This document shows positions 35,395 to 40,977 of a stretch of 64,000 nucleotides of DNA, one piece after another; position 1 is the stretch's first letter; each line of letters begins with the position of its first letter. The translations under genes were made by a program, and so were the position numbers. The notes beneath the pieces are model-generated. The model made no database searches. It was not told the origin of the DNA and worked only from the letters and a program-made list of their open reading frames with translations. Source of the DNA: Escherichia coli (lineage in GTDB: Bacteria > Pseudomonadota > Gammaproteobacteria > Enterobacterales > Enterobacteriaceae); the NCBI RefSeq assembly GCF_003334305.1, contig NZ_QOWS01000024.1; one strand, given 5' to 3'.

Positions 35395-35515
35395 CCACTA
35401 AACACTCTAGCCTCTGCACCTGGGTCAACTGATACGGTGCTTTGGCCGTGACAATGCTCGTAAAGATTGCCACCAGGGCGAAGGAAGAAATGACTTCGCC
35501 TCCCGTATCTGGAAA
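35395..35515 (+). promoter_or_regulatory. molybdenum cofactor (Moco) riboswitch in moaA leader
   Basis: Structured leader immediately upstream of moaA containing a CCUCCC element and GGAAAGG RBS; the E. coli moaA 5' UTR is known to carry the Moco RNA motif; boundaries approximate. Confidence 0.5.
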
Positions 35516-35522
35516 GGTGTAC

Positions 35523-36512
35523 ATGGCTTCACAACTGACTGATGCATTTGCGCGTAAGTTTTACTACTTGCGCCTGTCGATTACCGATGTGTGTAACTTT
35601 CGTTGCACCTACTGCCTGCCGGATGGCTACAAACCGAGCGGCGTCACCAATAAAGGCTTTCTTACCGTCGATGAAATTCGCCGGGTTACGCGCGCCTTCG
35701 CCAGTCTGGGCACCGAAAAAGTGCGCCTGACAGGCGGTGAGCCGTCTTTACGCCGCGACTTTACCGATATCATCGCCGCTGTGCGGGAAAACGACGCTAT
35801 CCGCCAGATTGCGGTCACCACCAATGGTTACCGTCTGGAACGCGATGTGGCGAACTGGCGCGATGCGGGACTTACTGGCATTAACGTCAGTGTCGACAGT
35901 CTGGACGCCCGCCAGTTTCACGCTATTACCGGGCAGGATAAATTCAACCAGGTCATGGCGGGGATTGATGCTGCATTTGAGGCCGGTTTTGAGAAGGTCA
36001 AAGTCAATACCGTGCTGATGCGTGATGTTAATCATCACCAGCTCGACACCTTTCTGAACTGGATCCAGCATCGCCCTATCCAGCTGCGTTTCATCGAACT
36101 GATGGAAACGGGCGAGGGCAGCGAGCTCTTCCGTAAGCATCACATCTCTGGTCAGGTTCTGCGTGACGAGCTACTGCGTCGCGGCTGGATCCACCAATTA
36201 CGTCAACGCAGCGACGGTCCCGCGCAAGTCTTTTGCCATCCAGATTACGCCGGAGAGATTGGCCTTATCATGCCGTATGAAAAAGACTTCTGCGCCACTT
36301 GCAACCGCCTGCGCGTTTCCTCCATTGGTAAACTCCATCTCTGCCTGTTTGGTGAAGGCGGCGTTAACCTGCGCGATCTGCTGGAAGACGATACCCAGCA
36401 ACAGGCGCTGGAAGCGCGTATTTCAGCGGCGCTGCGGGAGAAGAAACAGACCCATTTCCTGCATCAAAACAACACCGGTATTACGCAAAACTTATCGTAC
36501 ATTGGCGGCTAA
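35523..36512 (+). CDS. moaA: GTP 3',8-cyclase (radical SAM)
   Basis: ORF track 35442..36512; start trimmed to [31 protein letters not shown] (CxxxCxxC), 329 aa. Confidence 0.93.
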
Positions 36513-37773: not shown

Positions 37774-38226
37774 ATGGCAGAAACCAAAATTGTTGTTGGT
37801 CCGCAGCCGTTCAGCGTAGGAGAAGAGTACCCGTGGCTGGCGGAGCGTGACGAAGACGGTGCGGTAGTCACCTTTACTGGTAAGGTGCGCAACCATAACC
37901 TGGGCGACAGCGTCAAAGCATTAACCCTCGAACACTATCCGGGGATGACTGAAAAAGCACTGGCAGAAATTGTTGATGAAGCGCGTAACCGCTGGCCGCT
38001 GGGGCGCGTCACTGTGATTCACCGCATCGGGGAATTATGGCCGGGCGATGAAATCGTTTTTGTCGGTGTCACCAGTGCGCATCGCAGCAGTGCGTTTGAA
38101 GCCGGGCAGTTTATTATGGATTATCTCAAAACCCGCGCACCGTTCTGGAAGCGCGAAGCCACGCCGGAAGGCGACCGCTGGGTTGAAGCTCGGGAGAGCG
38201 ATCAGCAGGCGGCAAAACGCTGGTAG
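37774..38226 (+). CDS. moaE: molybdopterin synthase catalytic subunit
   Basis: ORF track 150 aa. Confidence 0.93.
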   Translation: MAETKIVVGPQPFSVGEEYPWLAERDEDGAVVTFTGKVRNHNLGDSVKALTLEHYPGMTEKALAEIVDEARNRWPLGRVTVIHRIGELWPGDEIVFVGVTSAHRSSAFEAGQFIMDYLKTRAPFWKREATPEGDRWVEARESDQQAAKRW

Positions 38227-38236
38227 TTTTTTGTTA

Positions 38237-38264
38237 GCCGGATAAGGCACCGCTGCGTCCGGCA
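38237..38264. repeat. REP element
   Basis: GCCGGATAAGGCACCGCTGCGTCCGGCA palindrome after moaE. Confidence 0.6.
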
Positions 38265-38362
38265 ATTTCACCGCTCAGTACATGCGTTTACGCTGCGTCG
38301 ATGCACAGCCTCATCATTTTGCAGTATCCTTAAGATATTCCTTATATCTTCAGGAGATCGTC

Positions 38363-39067
38363 ATGGACAGATTCCCACGTTCTGATTCAATCGTACAACC
38401 CCGGGCTGGCTTGCAAACTTATATGGCGCAAGTCTATGGCTGGATGACCGTTGGCTTGTTGCTGACCGCATTTGTTGCCTGGTATGCGGCTAATTCCGCG
38501 GCCGTGATGGAGCTGTTGTTTACTAACCGTGTCTTTTTAATCGGTCTGATCATCGCGCAATTAGCATTGGTTATTGTGTTATCAGCGATGATTCAAAAGC
38601 TGAGCGCAGGTGTAACGACGATGCTCTTTATGCTTTATTCGGCGCTGACGGGTCTTACGCTTTCCAGTATATTCATTGTCTATACCGCTGCTTCTATCGC
38701 CAGTACTTTCGTCGTTACTGCCGGGATGTTCGGCGCAATGAGCCTGTACGGTTACACCACGAAGCGCGATTTAAGTGGCTTTGGCAATATGCTGTTTATG
38801 GCGTTAATCGGCATTGTGCTGGCATCGCTGGTCAACTTCTGGCTGAAAAGCGAAGCATTGATGTGGGCAGTTACCTACATCGGCGTGATTGTCTTTGTCG
38901 GATTGACGGCGTATGACACTCAGAAATTGAAAAATATGGGTGAGCAGATTGATACCCGCGACACGTCGAACCTGCGCAAATATTCCATTCTTGGCGCGTT
39001 AACCTTGTATCTGGACTTCATCAACCTGTTCCTGATGTTGCTGCGAATTTTTGGCAACCGCCGTTAA
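38363..39067 (+). CDS. ybhL: BAX inhibitor-1 (TMBIM) family inner membrane protein
   Basis: ORF track 38282..39067; start trimmed to MDRFPRSDSIVQPRAGLQTYMAQVYGWM (234 aa); 7-TM profile. Confidence 0.88.
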   Translation: MDRFPRSDSIVQPRAGLQTYMAQVYGWMTVGLLLTAFVAWYAANSAAVMELLFTNRVFLIGLIIAQLALVIVLSAMIQKLSAGVTTMLFMLYSALTGLTLSSIFIVYTAASIASTFVVTAGMFGAMSLYGYTTKRDLSGFGNMLFMALIGIVLASLVNFWLKSEALMWAVTYIGVIVFVGLTAYDTQKLKNMGEQIDTRDTSNLRKYSILGALTLYLDFINLFLMLLRIFGNRR

Positions 39068-39085
39068 TTCTTTTTCACCATCAAT

Positions 39086-39114
39086 ATCCCGGCCATGTGT
39101 CGGGATTTTTTTTC
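39086..39114 (+). terminator. rho-independent terminator after ybhL
   Basis: Hairpin ATCCCGGCC-ATGTG-TCGGGAT followed by TTTTTTTT. Confidence 0.55.
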
Positions 39115-39271
39115 TTACTAAAAACGACACTTAACAAGTACCAGGTATAAAATACGCCTTATGGCGAGCGGAAGCGTTTTCCGTATCCATAAATACAAAA
39201 GTATTTTGTATGCGTGGTTTTAAATTTATTGATGGTGAATATTAATATTTTTTCTAAGGACAACTAAAAGA

Positions 39272-39985
39272 ATGGAATCATATTCACAAAACAGCAATAA
39301 ATTAGATTTTCAGCACGAGACCAGGATATTAAACGGTATATGGCTCATTACCGCTTTAGGTTTGGTGGCAACCGCAGGACTGGCCTGGGGAGCTAAGTAT
39401 CTCGAAATTACGGCAACCAAATATGATTCACCAACAATGTATGTCGCCATAGGGTTATTATTAGTTTGTATGTATGGCTTAAGTAAGGATATCAACAAGA
39501 TAAATGCCGTCATCGCAGGCGTAATATATCTGTTTTTACTCTCTTTGGTGGCGATTGTCGTTGCAAGTTTAGCTCCTGTACCTGCCATTATCGTCGTGTT
39601 CAGCACTGCGGGCGCGATGTTTTTAATCAGTATGCTGGCCGGTTTATTATTTAATGTTGATCCTGGTTCTCACCGTTTTATCATTATGATGACGTTGACA
39701 GGTTTGGCCCTGGTGATCATCATGAATGCCGCATTAATGAGTGAACGACCCGTTTGGGTAATAAGTTGCTTAATGATTGTGTTATGGTCAGGCATTATCT
39801 CGCATGGACGAAATAAGCTCCTTGAATTGGCTGGGAAATGCCATAGTGAAGAGTTGTGGAGTCCGGTTCGTTGCGCTGTTACAGGTGCATTAACACTCTA
39901 TTACTATTTTATCGGCTTCTTTGGGATACTTGCCGCGATAGCTATAACGCTTGTCTGGCAAAGGCATACGCGTTTTTTTCATTAG
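39272..39985 (+). CDS. ybhM: BAX inhibitor-1-like inner membrane protein (paralog of ybhL)
   Basis: ORF track 237 aa; shares the C-terminal GALTLY motif with YbhL. Confidence 0.85.
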   Translation: MESYSQNSNKLDFQHETRILNGIWLITALGLVATAGLAWGAKYLEITATKYDSPTMYVAIGLLLVCMYGLSKDINKINAVIAGVIYLFLLSLVAIVVASLAPVPAIIVVFSTAGAMFLISMLAGLLFNVDPGSHRFIIMMTLTGLALVIIMNAALMSERPVWVISCLMIVLWSGIISHGRNKLLELAGKCHSEELWSPVRCAVTGALTLYYYFIGFFGILAAIAITLVWQRHTRFFH

Positions 39986-40020
39986 TCGTAAATGCAGATA
40001 CTAAAGAACTTAACTAAACT

Positions 40021-40977
40021 TCACATCGCCGCTTCATTTTTCGCCCGTAGCTTCTTCGCCTGGCTTTCCAGTAGCAGGTAACAGATCAGCGCCAGCAGCA
40101 GCGGGATAAAGTAATACAGGACGCGATAAGCGAGTAGGGCGGCGATAATTGTGCCTTTGGATGTATGCTCCCCAGCCAGTAGCGCGATAAACACCGCTTC
40201 CAGCACACCGATCCCCGCCGGAATATGCACGATGACGCCAGCAATACTACTAACCAGTAACACGCCCAGTACAAAGAAATAGTTCACGCTTTGACCAAGT
40301 AACAGCCAGATAATCGCCCCCATTACCATCCAGTTAACGCTGGAAATCAGCATCTGAGCGAGGGCGAATTTCCATGAAGGCAGCACCAGTTTTTGCCCTT
40401 TGATGGTCATATGGCGGTGCTTCGCGAAAGCGCAAAACCACAAATAAACCGCGATAATCATCAGTAAGCCAATGCCGAGAATACGCAGCGTAGTTTGATC
40501 GACATACCAGTGATCCGGCAACTCCACCACGCCTGCGGTAAAGATAATCCCTGCCAGTAAAATATAGCCCAGCCAGTTGGTGGTAATACTGAGCGAGAAA
40601 ATCCGCGTAATAGTGCTGCCCGGTAACCCTAGTCGGGAGTACAAACGATAGCGCATACCAATGCCGCCGACCCAGGTACTGAGCGTCAGGTTGAAGGCGT
40701 AGCAGATAAACGACACCAGCATCACCTGGCGCTTCGCCAGTTTGTGACCGCAGTAAAAGCGGGCGAGCAGGTCATAGCAGCCGTAAATCAGATAGCTGAC
40801 GACCACCAGCCCGACCGCACTAAGCAGCGCAACGCGATTGTAGTCGCGGATGACCTTCCAGACCTCTTCCCAGTCCACTTTTTTGGCGTAGACCACCAGC
40901 AACACAATCACCGCGATAAAAAACAGCCAGGTGAGGATCTTCTTTGCTAAGCGCCAGCGCGGGTGTGATTTACTCAT
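40021..40977 (-). CDS. ybhN: inner membrane protein, flippase-like
   Basis: ORF track 318 aa; polytopic membrane protein; start codon overlaps clsB stop. Confidence 0.85.
   Translation of the reverse strand: MSKSHPRWRLAKKILTWLFFIAVIVLLVVYAKKVDWEEVWKVIRDYNRVALLSAVGLVVVSYLIYGCYDLLARFYCGHKLAKRQVMLVSFICYAFNLTLSTWVGGIGMRYRLYSRLGLPGSTITRIFSLSITTNWLGYILLAGIIFTAGVVELPDHWYVDQTTLRILGIGLLMIIAVYLWFCAFAKHRHMTIKGQKLVLPSWKFALAQMLISSVNWMVMGAIIWLLLGQSVNYFFVLGVLLVSSIAGVIVHIPAGIGVLEAVFIALLAGEHTSKGTIIAALLAYRVLYYFIPLLLALICYLLLESQAKKLRAKNEAAM

What the first reader, a model, noticed from the sequence alone, without database searches (positions are those of the whole stretch)
38363..39985. Adjacent paralogous BAX-inhibitor-like membrane proteins ybhL and ybhM separated by an AT-rich spacer
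Two 7-TM proteins of nearly equal length (234 and 237 aa) sit in tandem on the same strand and share a C-terminal GALTLY motif, indicating an ancient tandem duplication. The 204-bp spacer before ybhM is AT-rich, and ybhL has its own terminator, so the copies are probably regulated independently. Eukaryotic TMBIM homologs are Ca2+/pH-responsive channels; the bacterial role is unclear.
Basis: seen in the sequence. Interest (0 to 1): 0.3.

Follow-up and report, generated by a model that had tools for sequence, protein, structure and literature searches.

The report
E. coli ybhL–ybhM BI-1 paralog pair
These are the already annotated E. coli genes ybhL and ybhM: ybhL is a conserved Bax-inhibitor-type membrane channel gene, and ybhM is a fast-evolving, often damaged copy that has lost the channel's acid-sensing residues and is what remains of a longer, variable gene array seen in related bacteria.

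Summary
The window is E. coli chromosome (moaABCDE-ybhL-ybhM / ybhN-clsB). ybhL (38363-39067, 234 aa) and ybhM (39272-39985, 237 aa) are tandem, same-strand homologues. BLASTP gives E=5e-11; both match Pfam Bax1-I. RefSeq names both in about 5,400 complete genomes, so the pair is already known.

The two copies are very unequal.
- ybhL keeps both aspartates of the BsYetJ pH sensor and is tightly constrained (dN/dS 0.017).
- ybhM has Gly and Tyr at those positions, is AT-rich (GC3 0.44 against 0.59-0.67), and has dN/dS 0.30.
- About 11% of genomes cover under 80% of ybhM; one example examined has a 108-codon in-frame deletion.
- Its relatives were named only in a few Enterobacteriaceae genera.

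The ybhL-ybhN interval is a variable array. 14% of E. coli carry a third paralogue in place of part of the spacer. E. albertii-like and rare E. coli genomes carry a fourth paralogue plus small genes, one a SUKH-4 match. In Salmonella a YbhM-like gene sits with two remote Sip4-like genes at two loci.

Independent transcription is supported. "Ancient duplication" is not shown. An immunity-like role for ybhM is possible but untested.

The parts
38237..38263 (+). REP-type palindromic element between the moaE stop and the ybhL promoter (context, not part of the gene pair)
   Evidence: The sequence is GCCGGATAAGGCACCGCTGCGTCCGGC. The 12-mer GCCGGATAAGGC, with at most 1 mismatch, occurs 7 times in the window against 0.32 expected.
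38302..38330 (+). ybhL sigma-70 promoter (TGCACA-17-TATCCT)
   Evidence: Listed as a constitutive RpoD promoter in PMC3946193. Located in the window by exact pattern match. My consensus scan did not pick it up.
38363..39067 (+). ybhL coding sequence, 234 aa: canonical BI-1/TMBIM-type seven-helix inner-membrane protein with K79, D185 and D218 at the BsYetJ R60/D171/D195 positions
   Evidence: Pfam Bax1-I 1.1e-62. Sequence match to BsYetJ 4pgr at E=1e-8. Residue mapping. dN/dS 0.017. RefSeq annotation.
39086..39113 (+). Intrinsic terminator of ybhL: hairpin 39086-39106 plus T run 39107-39113
   Evidence: 8-bp stem with 5 G-C pairs and a 5-nt loop. Fold energy -11.6 kcal/mol, z = -1.98. The stretch up to 39112 is conserved in the three- and four-gene haplotypes.
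39113..39237 (+). Haplotype-specific middle of the spacer; it carries the ybhM promoter
   Evidence: Present in 4,646 of 5,426 complete E. coli genomes. The extra paralogue X is carried at >=80% coverage by 749 other genomes, and the two counts together roughly equal the number of genomes with ybhM. No detectable similarity to the X region.
39124..39151 (+). ybhM sigma-70 promoter (ACGACA-16-TATAAA), in an H-NS-marked AT-rich spacer
   Evidence: PMC3946193 table row 'ybhL > HNS > ybhM'. Pattern match in the window. An overlapping site was found by the consensus scan at 39124-39153.
39272..39985 (+). ybhM coding sequence, 237 aa: divergent BI-1-fold paralogue with K76, G179 and Y212 at the sensor positions
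   Evidence: Pfam Bax1-I 2.7e-19. AF2 model with pLDDT 91.3 and seven helices. Alignment A2. GC3 0.437. dN/dS 0.30.
39381..39704 (+). Segment of ybhM (codons 37-144) removed in frame in the deletion allele examined
   Evidence: Locus L014 has a 129-aa remnant and an IS200C in the spacer. 612 of the 5,400 genomes with a ybhM match cover less than 80% of the gene.

Best explanation
ybhL and ybhM are two homologous BI-1/TMBIM-fold inner-membrane protein genes with very unequal histories.

ybhL is the conserved, housekeeping copy. It keeps the basic residue and both aspartates that form the pH-sensing latch of the solved bacterial homologue BsYetJ. It is therefore most likely a pH-gated cation (Ca2+/H+) leak. 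This is inferred by homology and not shown here.

ybhM belongs to a small, fast-evolving, AT-rich subfamily whose named members are all Enterobacteriaceae. No member of the subfamily keeps both sensor aspartates; E. coli YbhM has Gly and Tyr. It therefore cannot work by the YetJ latch mechanism.

ybhM is transcribed from its own promoter behind the ybhL terminator, in an H-NS-marked spacer. It is under weak but real purifying selection. It is dispensable, since it is damaged or truncated in roughly a tenth of complete E. coli genomes.

The two-gene arrangement in this window is the reduced form of a variable tandem array (ybhL, X, ybhM, Z, then small genes). That array is still present in E. 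albertii-like genomes, in the L003 genome (tentatively a cryptic-clade Escherichia, from cluster names only) and in a minority of E. coli.

My best guess for ybhM's present role is a conditional accessory membrane protein in slow decay. It is neither a second copy of the channel nor a dead gene.
For: Homology and family:
- BLASTP E=5e-11. Pfam Bax1-I hits for both proteins.
- YbhL matches BsYetJ at E=1e-8.

Sensor residues:
- BsYetJ numbering of R60, D171 and D195 was checked. [quoted passage not shown]
- In alignment A2, YbhL and four other canonical BI-1 proteins keep both aspartates. E. coli YbhM has G and Y. Other YbhM-like proteins have E, K or D at position 171 and S, G, C or D at position 195. 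None has both.

Rates:
- Ten Escherichia alleles give mean dN/dS of 0.30 for ybhM. The values for moaE, ybhL, ybhN and clsB are 0.028, 0.017, 0.039 and 0.024. dS is similar across the genes.
- Flanking proteins are 87-92% identical between E. coli and Salmonella, whereas the YbhM-like proteins are 28% identical.

Composition: GC3 is 0.437 for ybhM against 0.59-0.67 for its neighbours.

Restricted family: the exhaustive scan gave 88 hits, with only about 12 full-length clusters at 25-35% identity. The named ones come from Escherichia, Salmonella, Kluyvera, Superficieibacter and Pseudocitrobacter. AFDB adds Kosakonia and Phytobacter.

Array:
- Gene orders are shown.
- X is present in 749 of 5,426 genomes. 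The alternative 125-bp spacer segment is present in 4,646.

Dispensability: 612 of 5,400 genomes cover under 80% of ybhM. One example examined has a 324-bp in-frame deletion plus IS200C. One genome has an IS1 insertion.

Remaining constraint:
- The subfamily has invariant residues: A28, W39, G114, M116, F117, G144, N152, W162, S165 and W172.
- The AF2 model is confident.

Transcription: terminator; promoters and H-NS mark.
Against: - No activity was measured for either protein. The channel role of YbhL rests on homology to BsYetJ and eukaryotic TMBIMs.
- Loss of the two aspartates rules out the YetJ-type latch but not some other ion pathway. Several relatives keep a Glu at the first position.
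- The tree does not place YbhM-like proteins next to enterobacterial YbhL (0/200 bootstraps). Origin by local duplication is inferred from position only.
- The promoter evidence is in vitro (genomic SELEX), not a mapped in vivo start site.
- dN/dS of 0.3 cannot separate uniform relaxation from a mixture of constrained and positively selected sites.
Confidence: 0.7

Rival explanations
1. YbhM-like proteins are BI-1-derived protective (immunity-like) membrane proteins against membrane-depolarising, pore-forming toxins delivered by rival bacteria. On this view the ybhL-ybhN interval is an orphan-immunity island and E. coli ybhM is its residual member.
For: - In Salmonella the YbhM-like gene is followed by two membrane-protein genes. 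All four copies examined hit only NCBIfam NF053812 'immunity protein Sip4', nearly full length, at E = 8.2e-8, 3.4e-5, 3.5e-8 and 3.1e-4.
- Sip4 is the inner-membrane immunity protein to the Serratia pore-forming T6SS effector Ssp4 (PMC12669606).
- The three-gene order is kept at two unrelated loci, ybhL-ybhN and downstream of guaA. The copies are 43, 37 and 40% identical, and the module GC is 0.39-0.43.
- A rare E. coli haplotype carries a SUKH-4 immunity-family gene in the same interval (Pfam E = 3.7e-5).
- Copy-number polymorphism, AT-richness, the H-NS mark and a tenfold raised dN/dS fit accessory conflict genes.
Against: - No toxin, VgrG, PAAR, Rhs or CdiA gene lies next to a YbhM-like gene in any of the nine contexts read.
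- YbhM-like proteins hit no immunity or defence model.
- They are not homologous to the Sip4-like proteins (hhalign probability 0.3%).
- The Sip4 hits are far below the 240-bit family cut-off.
- No region of ybhM has dN/dS above 1.
- The window itself holds none of the immunity-type genes.
- No paper links Bax inhibitor proteins with T6SS immunity.
Confidence: 0.18
2. ybhM is a functionless duplicate on its way to being lost. H-NS keeps it silent and its open reading frame survives only by chance.
For: - 612 of 5,400 complete genomes cover under 80% of ybhM; an example has a 108-codon deletion, and IS200C and IS1 insertions occur.
- Many truncated forms are present in protein databases.
- dN/dS is ten to fifteen times that of the neighbours and is raised evenly along the gene.
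- The spacer is H-NS-marked.
- Most E. coli have already lost paralogues X and Z.
Against: - dN/dS is 0.25-0.37, well below 1, for all three paralogues at dS of about 0.17-0.2.
- The 714-nt frame is intact in all ten diverse alleles read, and most genomes cover at least 80% of the gene.
- Ten residues are invariant across a subfamily that is otherwise only 24-36% identical.
- The family alignment gives a confident AF2 model.
Confidence: 0.2
3. ybhM did not arise by duplication of the adjacent ybhL. It came in by horizontal transfer as part of a mobile AT-rich cassette that landed next to ybhL.
For: - GC3 is 0.437 against 0.59-0.67 for the neighbours.
- The YbhM-like clade is never sister to enterobacterial YbhL.
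- A YbhM-like module sits downstream of guaA in some Salmonella.
- The interval also holds unrelated low-GC accessory genes.
Against: - In eight of nine contexts the YbhM-like genes lie directly downstream of ybhL on the same strand. That would be an unlikely landing site by chance for a member of the same family.
- The nearest non-family hits of YbhM are YbhL-type proteins with the AYDTQK and LYLDFINLF motifs.
- The long branch makes the tree uninformative.
Confidence: 0.2
4. YbhL and/or YbhM act like the third E. coli paralogue YccA, binding and modulating the FtsH protease, rather than acting as channels.
For: - YccA is a BI-1 relative that is both a substrate and an inhibitor of FtsH. Human TMBIM5 controls the homologous m-AAA protease (PMC9379554).
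- YbhL gives a weak hit to the YccA model (E = 4.7e-5).
Against: - YbhL scores 23 bits against a 353-bit cut-off for the YccA equivalog, and YbhM does not hit it at all.
- Nothing in the locus links it to ftsH or hflKC.
- The cytoplasmic N-terminal tail, which FtsH uses on YccA (my own knowledge), is the most variable part of YbhM (dN/dS 0.49 for codons 1-20).
Confidence: 0.1

Closest known systems
BsYetJ (Bacillus subtilis), the solved bacterial TMBIM/BI-1 homologue (PDB 4pgr and related entries); Pfam PF01027 Bax1-I
   Same: YbhL aligns over residues 34-231 at E=1e-8. It keeps the equivalents of R60 (as Lys), D171 and D195, and the LYLDFINLF helix-7 motif. YbhM matches the same Pfam model end to end and is predicted to have seven helices.
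E. coli YccA (FtsH modulator; NCBIfam NF007765)
   Same: Same superfamily and the same organism. RefSeq names all three 'Bax inhibitor-1/YccA family'.
   Different: YbhL reaches only 23 bits against a 353-bit cut-off, and YbhM gives no hit. yccA lies elsewhere on the chromosome, outside the window.
Orphan immunity gene clusters of polymorphic-toxin / T6SS systems (for example Sip4 of Serratia and SUKH-family immunity proteins)
   Same: In relatives the same interval holds Sip4-like and SUKH-4-like genes. The array is variable in copy number, AT-rich and fast-evolving.
   Different: No immunity-family model matches YbhM. No toxin is adjacent in any context read. The window's own locus contains only ybhL and ybhM.
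ybhL RNA motif (Rfam RF00520) upstream of ybhL homologues in Rhizobiales
   Same: It precedes genes of the same COG as ybhL (PMC1273637).
   Different: It is not present here. The Rfam scan of 38000-40200 at E<=1 gave only a sub-threshold PsrR1 hit on the terminator.

Membership tests
BI-1 / TMBIM (Pfam PF01027 Bax1-I) | Significant, near full-length match to the family profile | tested here: met
   YbhL scores 1.1e-62 over model positions 1-207 of 207. YbhM scores 2.7e-19 over positions 3-205 of 207.
BI-1 / TMBIM (Pfam PF01027 Bax1-I) | Seven transmembrane helices | tested here: met
   The AF2 model of YbhM built from a 58-sequence alignment has pLDDT 91.3, pTM 0.87 and seven helices. YbhL aligns helix for helix with BsYetJ.
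BI-1 / TMBIM (Pfam PF01027 Bax1-I) | Fold match to the solved BsYetJ structure | tested here: inconclusive
BI-1 / TMBIM (Pfam PF01027 Bax1-I) | Di-aspartyl pH sensor (BsYetJ D171 and D195) | tested here: not met
   YbhL meets it (D185, D218). YbhM does not (G179, Y212). No YbhM-like protein in alignment A2 has both.
BI-1 / TMBIM (Pfam PF01027 Bax1-I) | pH-dependent Ca2+ leak activity | not testable with these tools
   This needs liposome or cell flux assays.
YccA-type FtsH modulator (NCBIfam NF007765) | Score above the curated equivalog cut-off (353 bits) | tested here: not met
   YbhL scores 23.3 bits and YbhM gives no hit.
Tandem duplicate of the neighbouring gene | Adjacent on the same strand with significant pairwise similarity | tested here: met
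   Shown. YbhM-like genes follow ybhL in eight of nine contexts.
Tandem duplicate of the neighbouring gene | The copies are each other's closest relatives in a tree | tested here: not met
   In the neighbour-joining tree of 58 sequences, the YbhM-like clade joined with enterobacterial YbhL in 0 of 200 bootstraps. Distances are saturated at about 2.3 substitutions per site, so the test has little power.
Polymorphic-toxin / T6SS immunity protein | Match to a described immunity family | tested here: not met
   YbhM and paralogues X and Z give no hits in NCBIfam or PADLOC. They show no homology to the Sip4-like neighbours.
Polymorphic-toxin / T6SS immunity protein | Encoded next to a cognate toxin or within an immunity-gene array | tested here: inconclusive
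   No toxin was found in the nine contexts read. Sip4-like and SUKH-4 genes do share the interval or module in Salmonella and in one E. coli haplotype. None of these genes is in the window.
Polymorphic-toxin / T6SS immunity protein | Protects against a specific toxin | not testable with these tools
   This needs competition or co-expression assays.

The most novel reading that the evidence does not exclude
A BI-1/TMBIM-fold protein family (YbhM, X, Z and their Salmonella, Kluyvera and Pseudocitrobacter relatives) has been turned from an ion channel into a fast-evolving protective factor against pore-forming interbacterial toxins. On this reading it moves as a module with Sip4-like immunity proteins, and E. 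coli ybhM is the remnant of such an orphan-immunity array.
Probability: 0.15. Interest if true: 0.6.

Novelty: already known. Interest (0 to 1): 0.3.

Why it matters
The gene pair itself is textbook annotation and changes nothing. What may be useful is the contrast between the copies.
- It gives a natural experiment on the BI-1 fold. One copy keeps the di-aspartyl sensor under strong constraint. The other has dispensed with the sensor, evolves ten times faster, and is gained and lost between strains.
- It warns against transferring 'Ca2+/pH channel' annotation to YbhM.
- The repeated linkage of YbhM-like genes with Sip4-like membrane proteins in Salmonella suggests a cheap, testable idea: this subfamily may act in defence against membrane-depolarising toxins. 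If true, that would be a new role for a fold best known from cell-death regulation in eukaryotes.

Tried and rejected
- **Rfam scan of 38000-40200 at E<=1.** The only hit was PsrR1 at 21 bits against a 42-bit threshold, lying on the terminator, and I treat it as chance. The Rhizobiales ybhL motif is absent.
- **PADLOC.** No hit for YbhL, YbhM, X, Z or the accessory genes.
- **NCBIfam and Pfam on the small genes of the Pseudocitrobacter and unidentified-enterobacterium arrays.** Nothing was found.
- **The Salmonella guaA island.** The 331-aa neighbour matches TPR/Sel1-like repeat models, not a toxin family.
- **Are the Sip4-like proteins themselves degenerate BI-1 proteins?** hhalign gave probability 0.3%, so I rejected this.
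- **Is the window's spacer a remnant of paralogue X?** Only the ybhL 3' end and terminator (up to 39112) and the last roughly 35 bp before ybhM align with the three-gene haplotypes. The segment 39113-39237 shows no similarity above shuffles.
- **Genome-contig scans.** The Sip4-like alignment matched patterns, but none was confirmed.
- **Word-indexed profile searches.** These returned only Escherichia or Salmonella sequences and did not extend either family.
- **Single-sequence AF2 of YbhM.** It was poor (pLDDT 58) and was replaced by the alignment-based model.
- **First Biopython tree script.** It timed out and was replaced by a numpy neighbour-joining script.
Full report
**What is there**

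The window is Escherichia coli chromosome. The 1,851 bases around the finding match 5,425 of 5,426 complete E. coli genomes, some at 100% identity. The RefSeq annotation of one such genome gives the gene order moaABCDE, ybhL, ybhM on the + strand, then ybhN, clsB and ybhP on the - strand.

- ybhL is 38363-39067 (234 aa) and ybhM is 39272-39985 (237 aa).
- The spacer is 204 bp with GC 0.333, against 0.521 for the window.
- The two proteins are homologous. BLASTP gives 24% identity over 151 aa with E=5e-11 and includes the shared GALTLY motif.
- Both match Pfam Bax1-I almost end to end, YbhL at 1.1e-62 and YbhM at 2.7e-19.

RefSeq already names both genes 'Bax inhibitor-1/YccA family protein', so the pair is known.

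**Transcription**

- A hairpin of 8 bp with 5 G-C pairs, followed by a T run, lies at 39086-39113, 19 nt after the ybhL stop. It folds at -11.6 kcal/mol, z = -1.98.
- This stretch is conserved in the other haplotypes of the locus.
- Shimada et al. (PMC3946193) list separate constitutive RpoD promoters for ybhL (TGCACA-17-TATCCT) and ybhM (ACGACA-16-TATAAA). They also mark H-NS for the ybhL-ybhM spacer.
- Both promoter strings are in the window, at 38302-38330 and 39124-39151. My consensus scan found the second one independently.

Independent regulation is thus supported. The promoter evidence is in vitro.

**The two copies are not equivalent**

I checked the numbering of BsYetJ so that R60, D171 and D195 fall where the literature puts them. 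The role of the di-aspartyl motif in TMBIM proteins is described in PMC9379554.

- In an alignment with BsYetJ, YbhL and four other canonical BI-1 proteins keep both aspartates. In YbhL these are D185 and D218, with K79 at the R60 position.
- E. coli YbhM has G179 and Y212 at the aspartate positions.
- YbhL hits BsYetJ in the PDB at E=1e-8. YbhM hits nothing there even at E<=10.
- ybhM is AT-rich, with GC 0.423 and GC3 0.437. GC3 is 0.59-0.67 in moaE, ybhL, ybhN and clsB.

**Rates**

I collected ten diverse Escherichia alleles of the whole locus and computed Nei-Gojobori dN/dS.

| Gene | Mean dN/dS |
|---|---|
| ybhM | 0.30 |
| moaE | 0.028 |
| ybhL | 0.017 |
| ybhN | 0.039 |
| clsB | 0.024 |

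- dS is similar across the genes.
- The rise in ybhM is spread along the gene. It is 0.22-0.29 in the body and 0.49 in the N-terminal tail, and nowhere exceeds 1.
- Between this window and the genome of locus L003 (tentatively a cryptic-clade Escherichia, from cluster names only), the flanking proteins are 98.4-100% identical and YbhM is 88% identical.
- Between E. coli and Salmonella the flanks are 87-92% identical and the YbhM-like proteins are 28% identical.

ybhM is also dispensable.

- 612 of the 5,400 genomes that have ybhM cover less than 80% of it.
- An example has a clean 324-bp in-frame deletion (window 39381-39704, codons 37-144) together with an IS200C just after the ybhL terminator.
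- One genome has an IS1 insertion.

The gene is nevertheless not neutral.

- dN/dS stays well below 1.
- The frame is intact in all ten alleles.
- Ten residues are invariant across a subfamily that is otherwise only 24-36% identical.
- An AF2 model built on a 58-sequence alignment is confident, with pLDDT 91.3, pTM 0.87 and seven helices.

**A small, young-looking subfamily**

- An exhaustive HMMER scan of 1.84 billion cluster representatives with YbhM found only 88 hits at E<=1e-3. Apart from Escherichia fragments there were about a dozen full-length proteins at 25-35% identity, followed by ordinary YbhL-type BI-1 proteins.
- The named clusters come from Escherichia, Salmonella, Kluyvera, Superficieibacter and Pseudocitrobacter. 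AFDB adds Kosakonia and Phytobacter.
- In a neighbour-joining tree these proteins form one long-branched clade (121/200 bootstraps). The clade never joins enterobacterial YbhL (0/200). Distances are saturated, so the tree neither proves nor disproves a local duplication.
- Position argues for local duplication. In eight of nine contexts the YbhM-like genes lie directly after ybhL.
- 'Ancient' is therefore unsupported. What can be said is a duplication, or less likely an acquisition, within Enterobacteriaceae, followed by fast divergence.

**The locus is a variable array**

| Source | Gene order |
|---|---|
| 749 of 5,426 complete E. coli genomes | ybhL, third paralogue X (234 or 246 aa), ybhM |
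| Other 4,646 E. coli genomes (this window) | 125-bp segment 39113-39237 instead of X; it carries the ybhM promoter and has no detectable similarity to the X region |
| Pseudocitrobacter and an unidentified enterobacterium | One or two YbhM-like genes interleaved with small unknown genes |
| Kluyvera | One YbhM-like gene |

X and Z show the same raised dN/dS as ybhM, at 0.37 and 0.25. The two-gene state in this window is therefore the reduced form of a longer array.

**An unexpected neighbourhood**

- In one E. coli haplotype, a 186-aa gene that shares the interval matches the Pfam SUKH-4 immunity family at E=3.7e-5.
- In Salmonella the YbhM-like gene is followed by two membrane-protein genes. 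Both hit only NCBIfam NF053812 'immunity protein Sip4', nearly full length, at E = 3.4e-5 and 8.2e-8. These scores are far below the 240-bit equivalog cut-off, so the proteins are remote relatives.
- Sip4 is the inner-membrane immunity protein to Ssp4, a pore-forming T6SS effector of Serratia (PMC12669606).
- A minority of Salmonella carry a second, diverged copy of the same three-gene module in the same order at an unrelated site downstream of guaA. The copies are 43, 37 and 40% identical and the module GC is 0.39, against 0.56 for guaA. Its two Sip4-like genes again hit the Sip4 model, at 3.5e-8 and 3.1e-4.
- Conserved order across that much divergence and at two loci argues for a functional link between YbhM-like and Sip4-like proteins.
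- The two families are not homologous to each other.

Evidence against an immunity role:

- No toxin or T6SS gene is adjacent in any context read.
- YbhM-like proteins hit no immunity or defence model.
- No paper in the library links Bax inhibitor proteins with T6SS immunity.
- None of these extra genes is in the window.

**Verdict**

The genes are homologous and independently transcribed, but the duplication is not shown to be ancient. The channel analogy applies to YbhL only.

- The best-supported picture is a conserved BI-1 channel gene (ybhL) next to a sensor-less, weakly constrained, H-NS-marked accessory paralogue (ybhM). That paralogue is the survivor of a shrinking array.
- Shown here: homology, residue loss, rate asymmetry, copy-number polymorphism, the deletion allele and the Salmonella module.
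- Inferred: channel activity of YbhL, loss of that activity in YbhM, origin by local duplication, and any present role of ybhM.
- The most interesting reading that the data do not exclude is that the YbhM-like family serves in protection against pore-forming toxins. I put it at about 15%.

Noticed in passing
window 38363-39067 compared with L003 1642-2346 and L011 1389-2093: ybhL has synonymous divergence of 0.51-0.60 between L003 and all other alleles, and 0.25-0.35 for L011. That is two to three times the dS of the flanking moaE, ybhN and clsB in the same genome pairs, while dN stays near zero. This looks like imported ybhL alleles (recombination), but I did not test it.
   Followed up: partly
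window 38237-38263: A REP-type palindrome (GCCGGATAAGGCACCGCTGCGTCCGGC) lies between moaE and the ybhL promoter. The 12-mer, with at most one mismatch, occurs 7 times in the window against 0.32 expected.
   Followed up: partly
L014 1573-2031 (E. coli strain elppa5); insertion point corresponds to about window 39103-39112: An IS200C copy sits right after the ybhL terminator hairpin, in the same haplotype that carries the 324-bp in-frame deletion of ybhM.
   Followed up: partly
L018 6001-7900 (Salmonella enterica GCA_025402555.1): A low-GC three-gene module (one YbhM-like gene and two Sip4-like genes) is inserted downstream of guaA. It is followed by a gene matching TPR/Sel1-like repeat models, DUF1266 and DjlB-like genes, and an IS fragment.
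   Followed up: partly
L015 (Kluyvera) and L019 (E. albertii-like contig): In these genomes ybhQ follows the BI-1 array directly and the ybhN-clsB-ybhP operon is absent from this position. The right-hand flank of the interval is therefore also variable between genera.
   Followed up: no
window about 35391-35535 (from L001 1192-1336): RefSeq annotates a molybdenum-cofactor riboswitch upstream of moaA in the matching genome. I did not check it in the window.
   Followed up: no
L003 4708-5299, L006 4231-5775, L007 3508-4099, L019 6500-7090: A DUF3969 gene, together with one to three small acidic proteins, recurs after the last BI-1 paralogue in Escherichia. One of the small proteins matches the SUKH-4 family. 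No paper in the library mentions DUF3969.
   Followed up: partly
window 39043-39110: There is a sub-threshold Rfam hit to the cyanobacterial sRNA PsrR1 (21.4 bits against a 42-bit threshold, E=0.52). It lies on the ybhL terminator and is almost certainly chance.
   Followed up: yes
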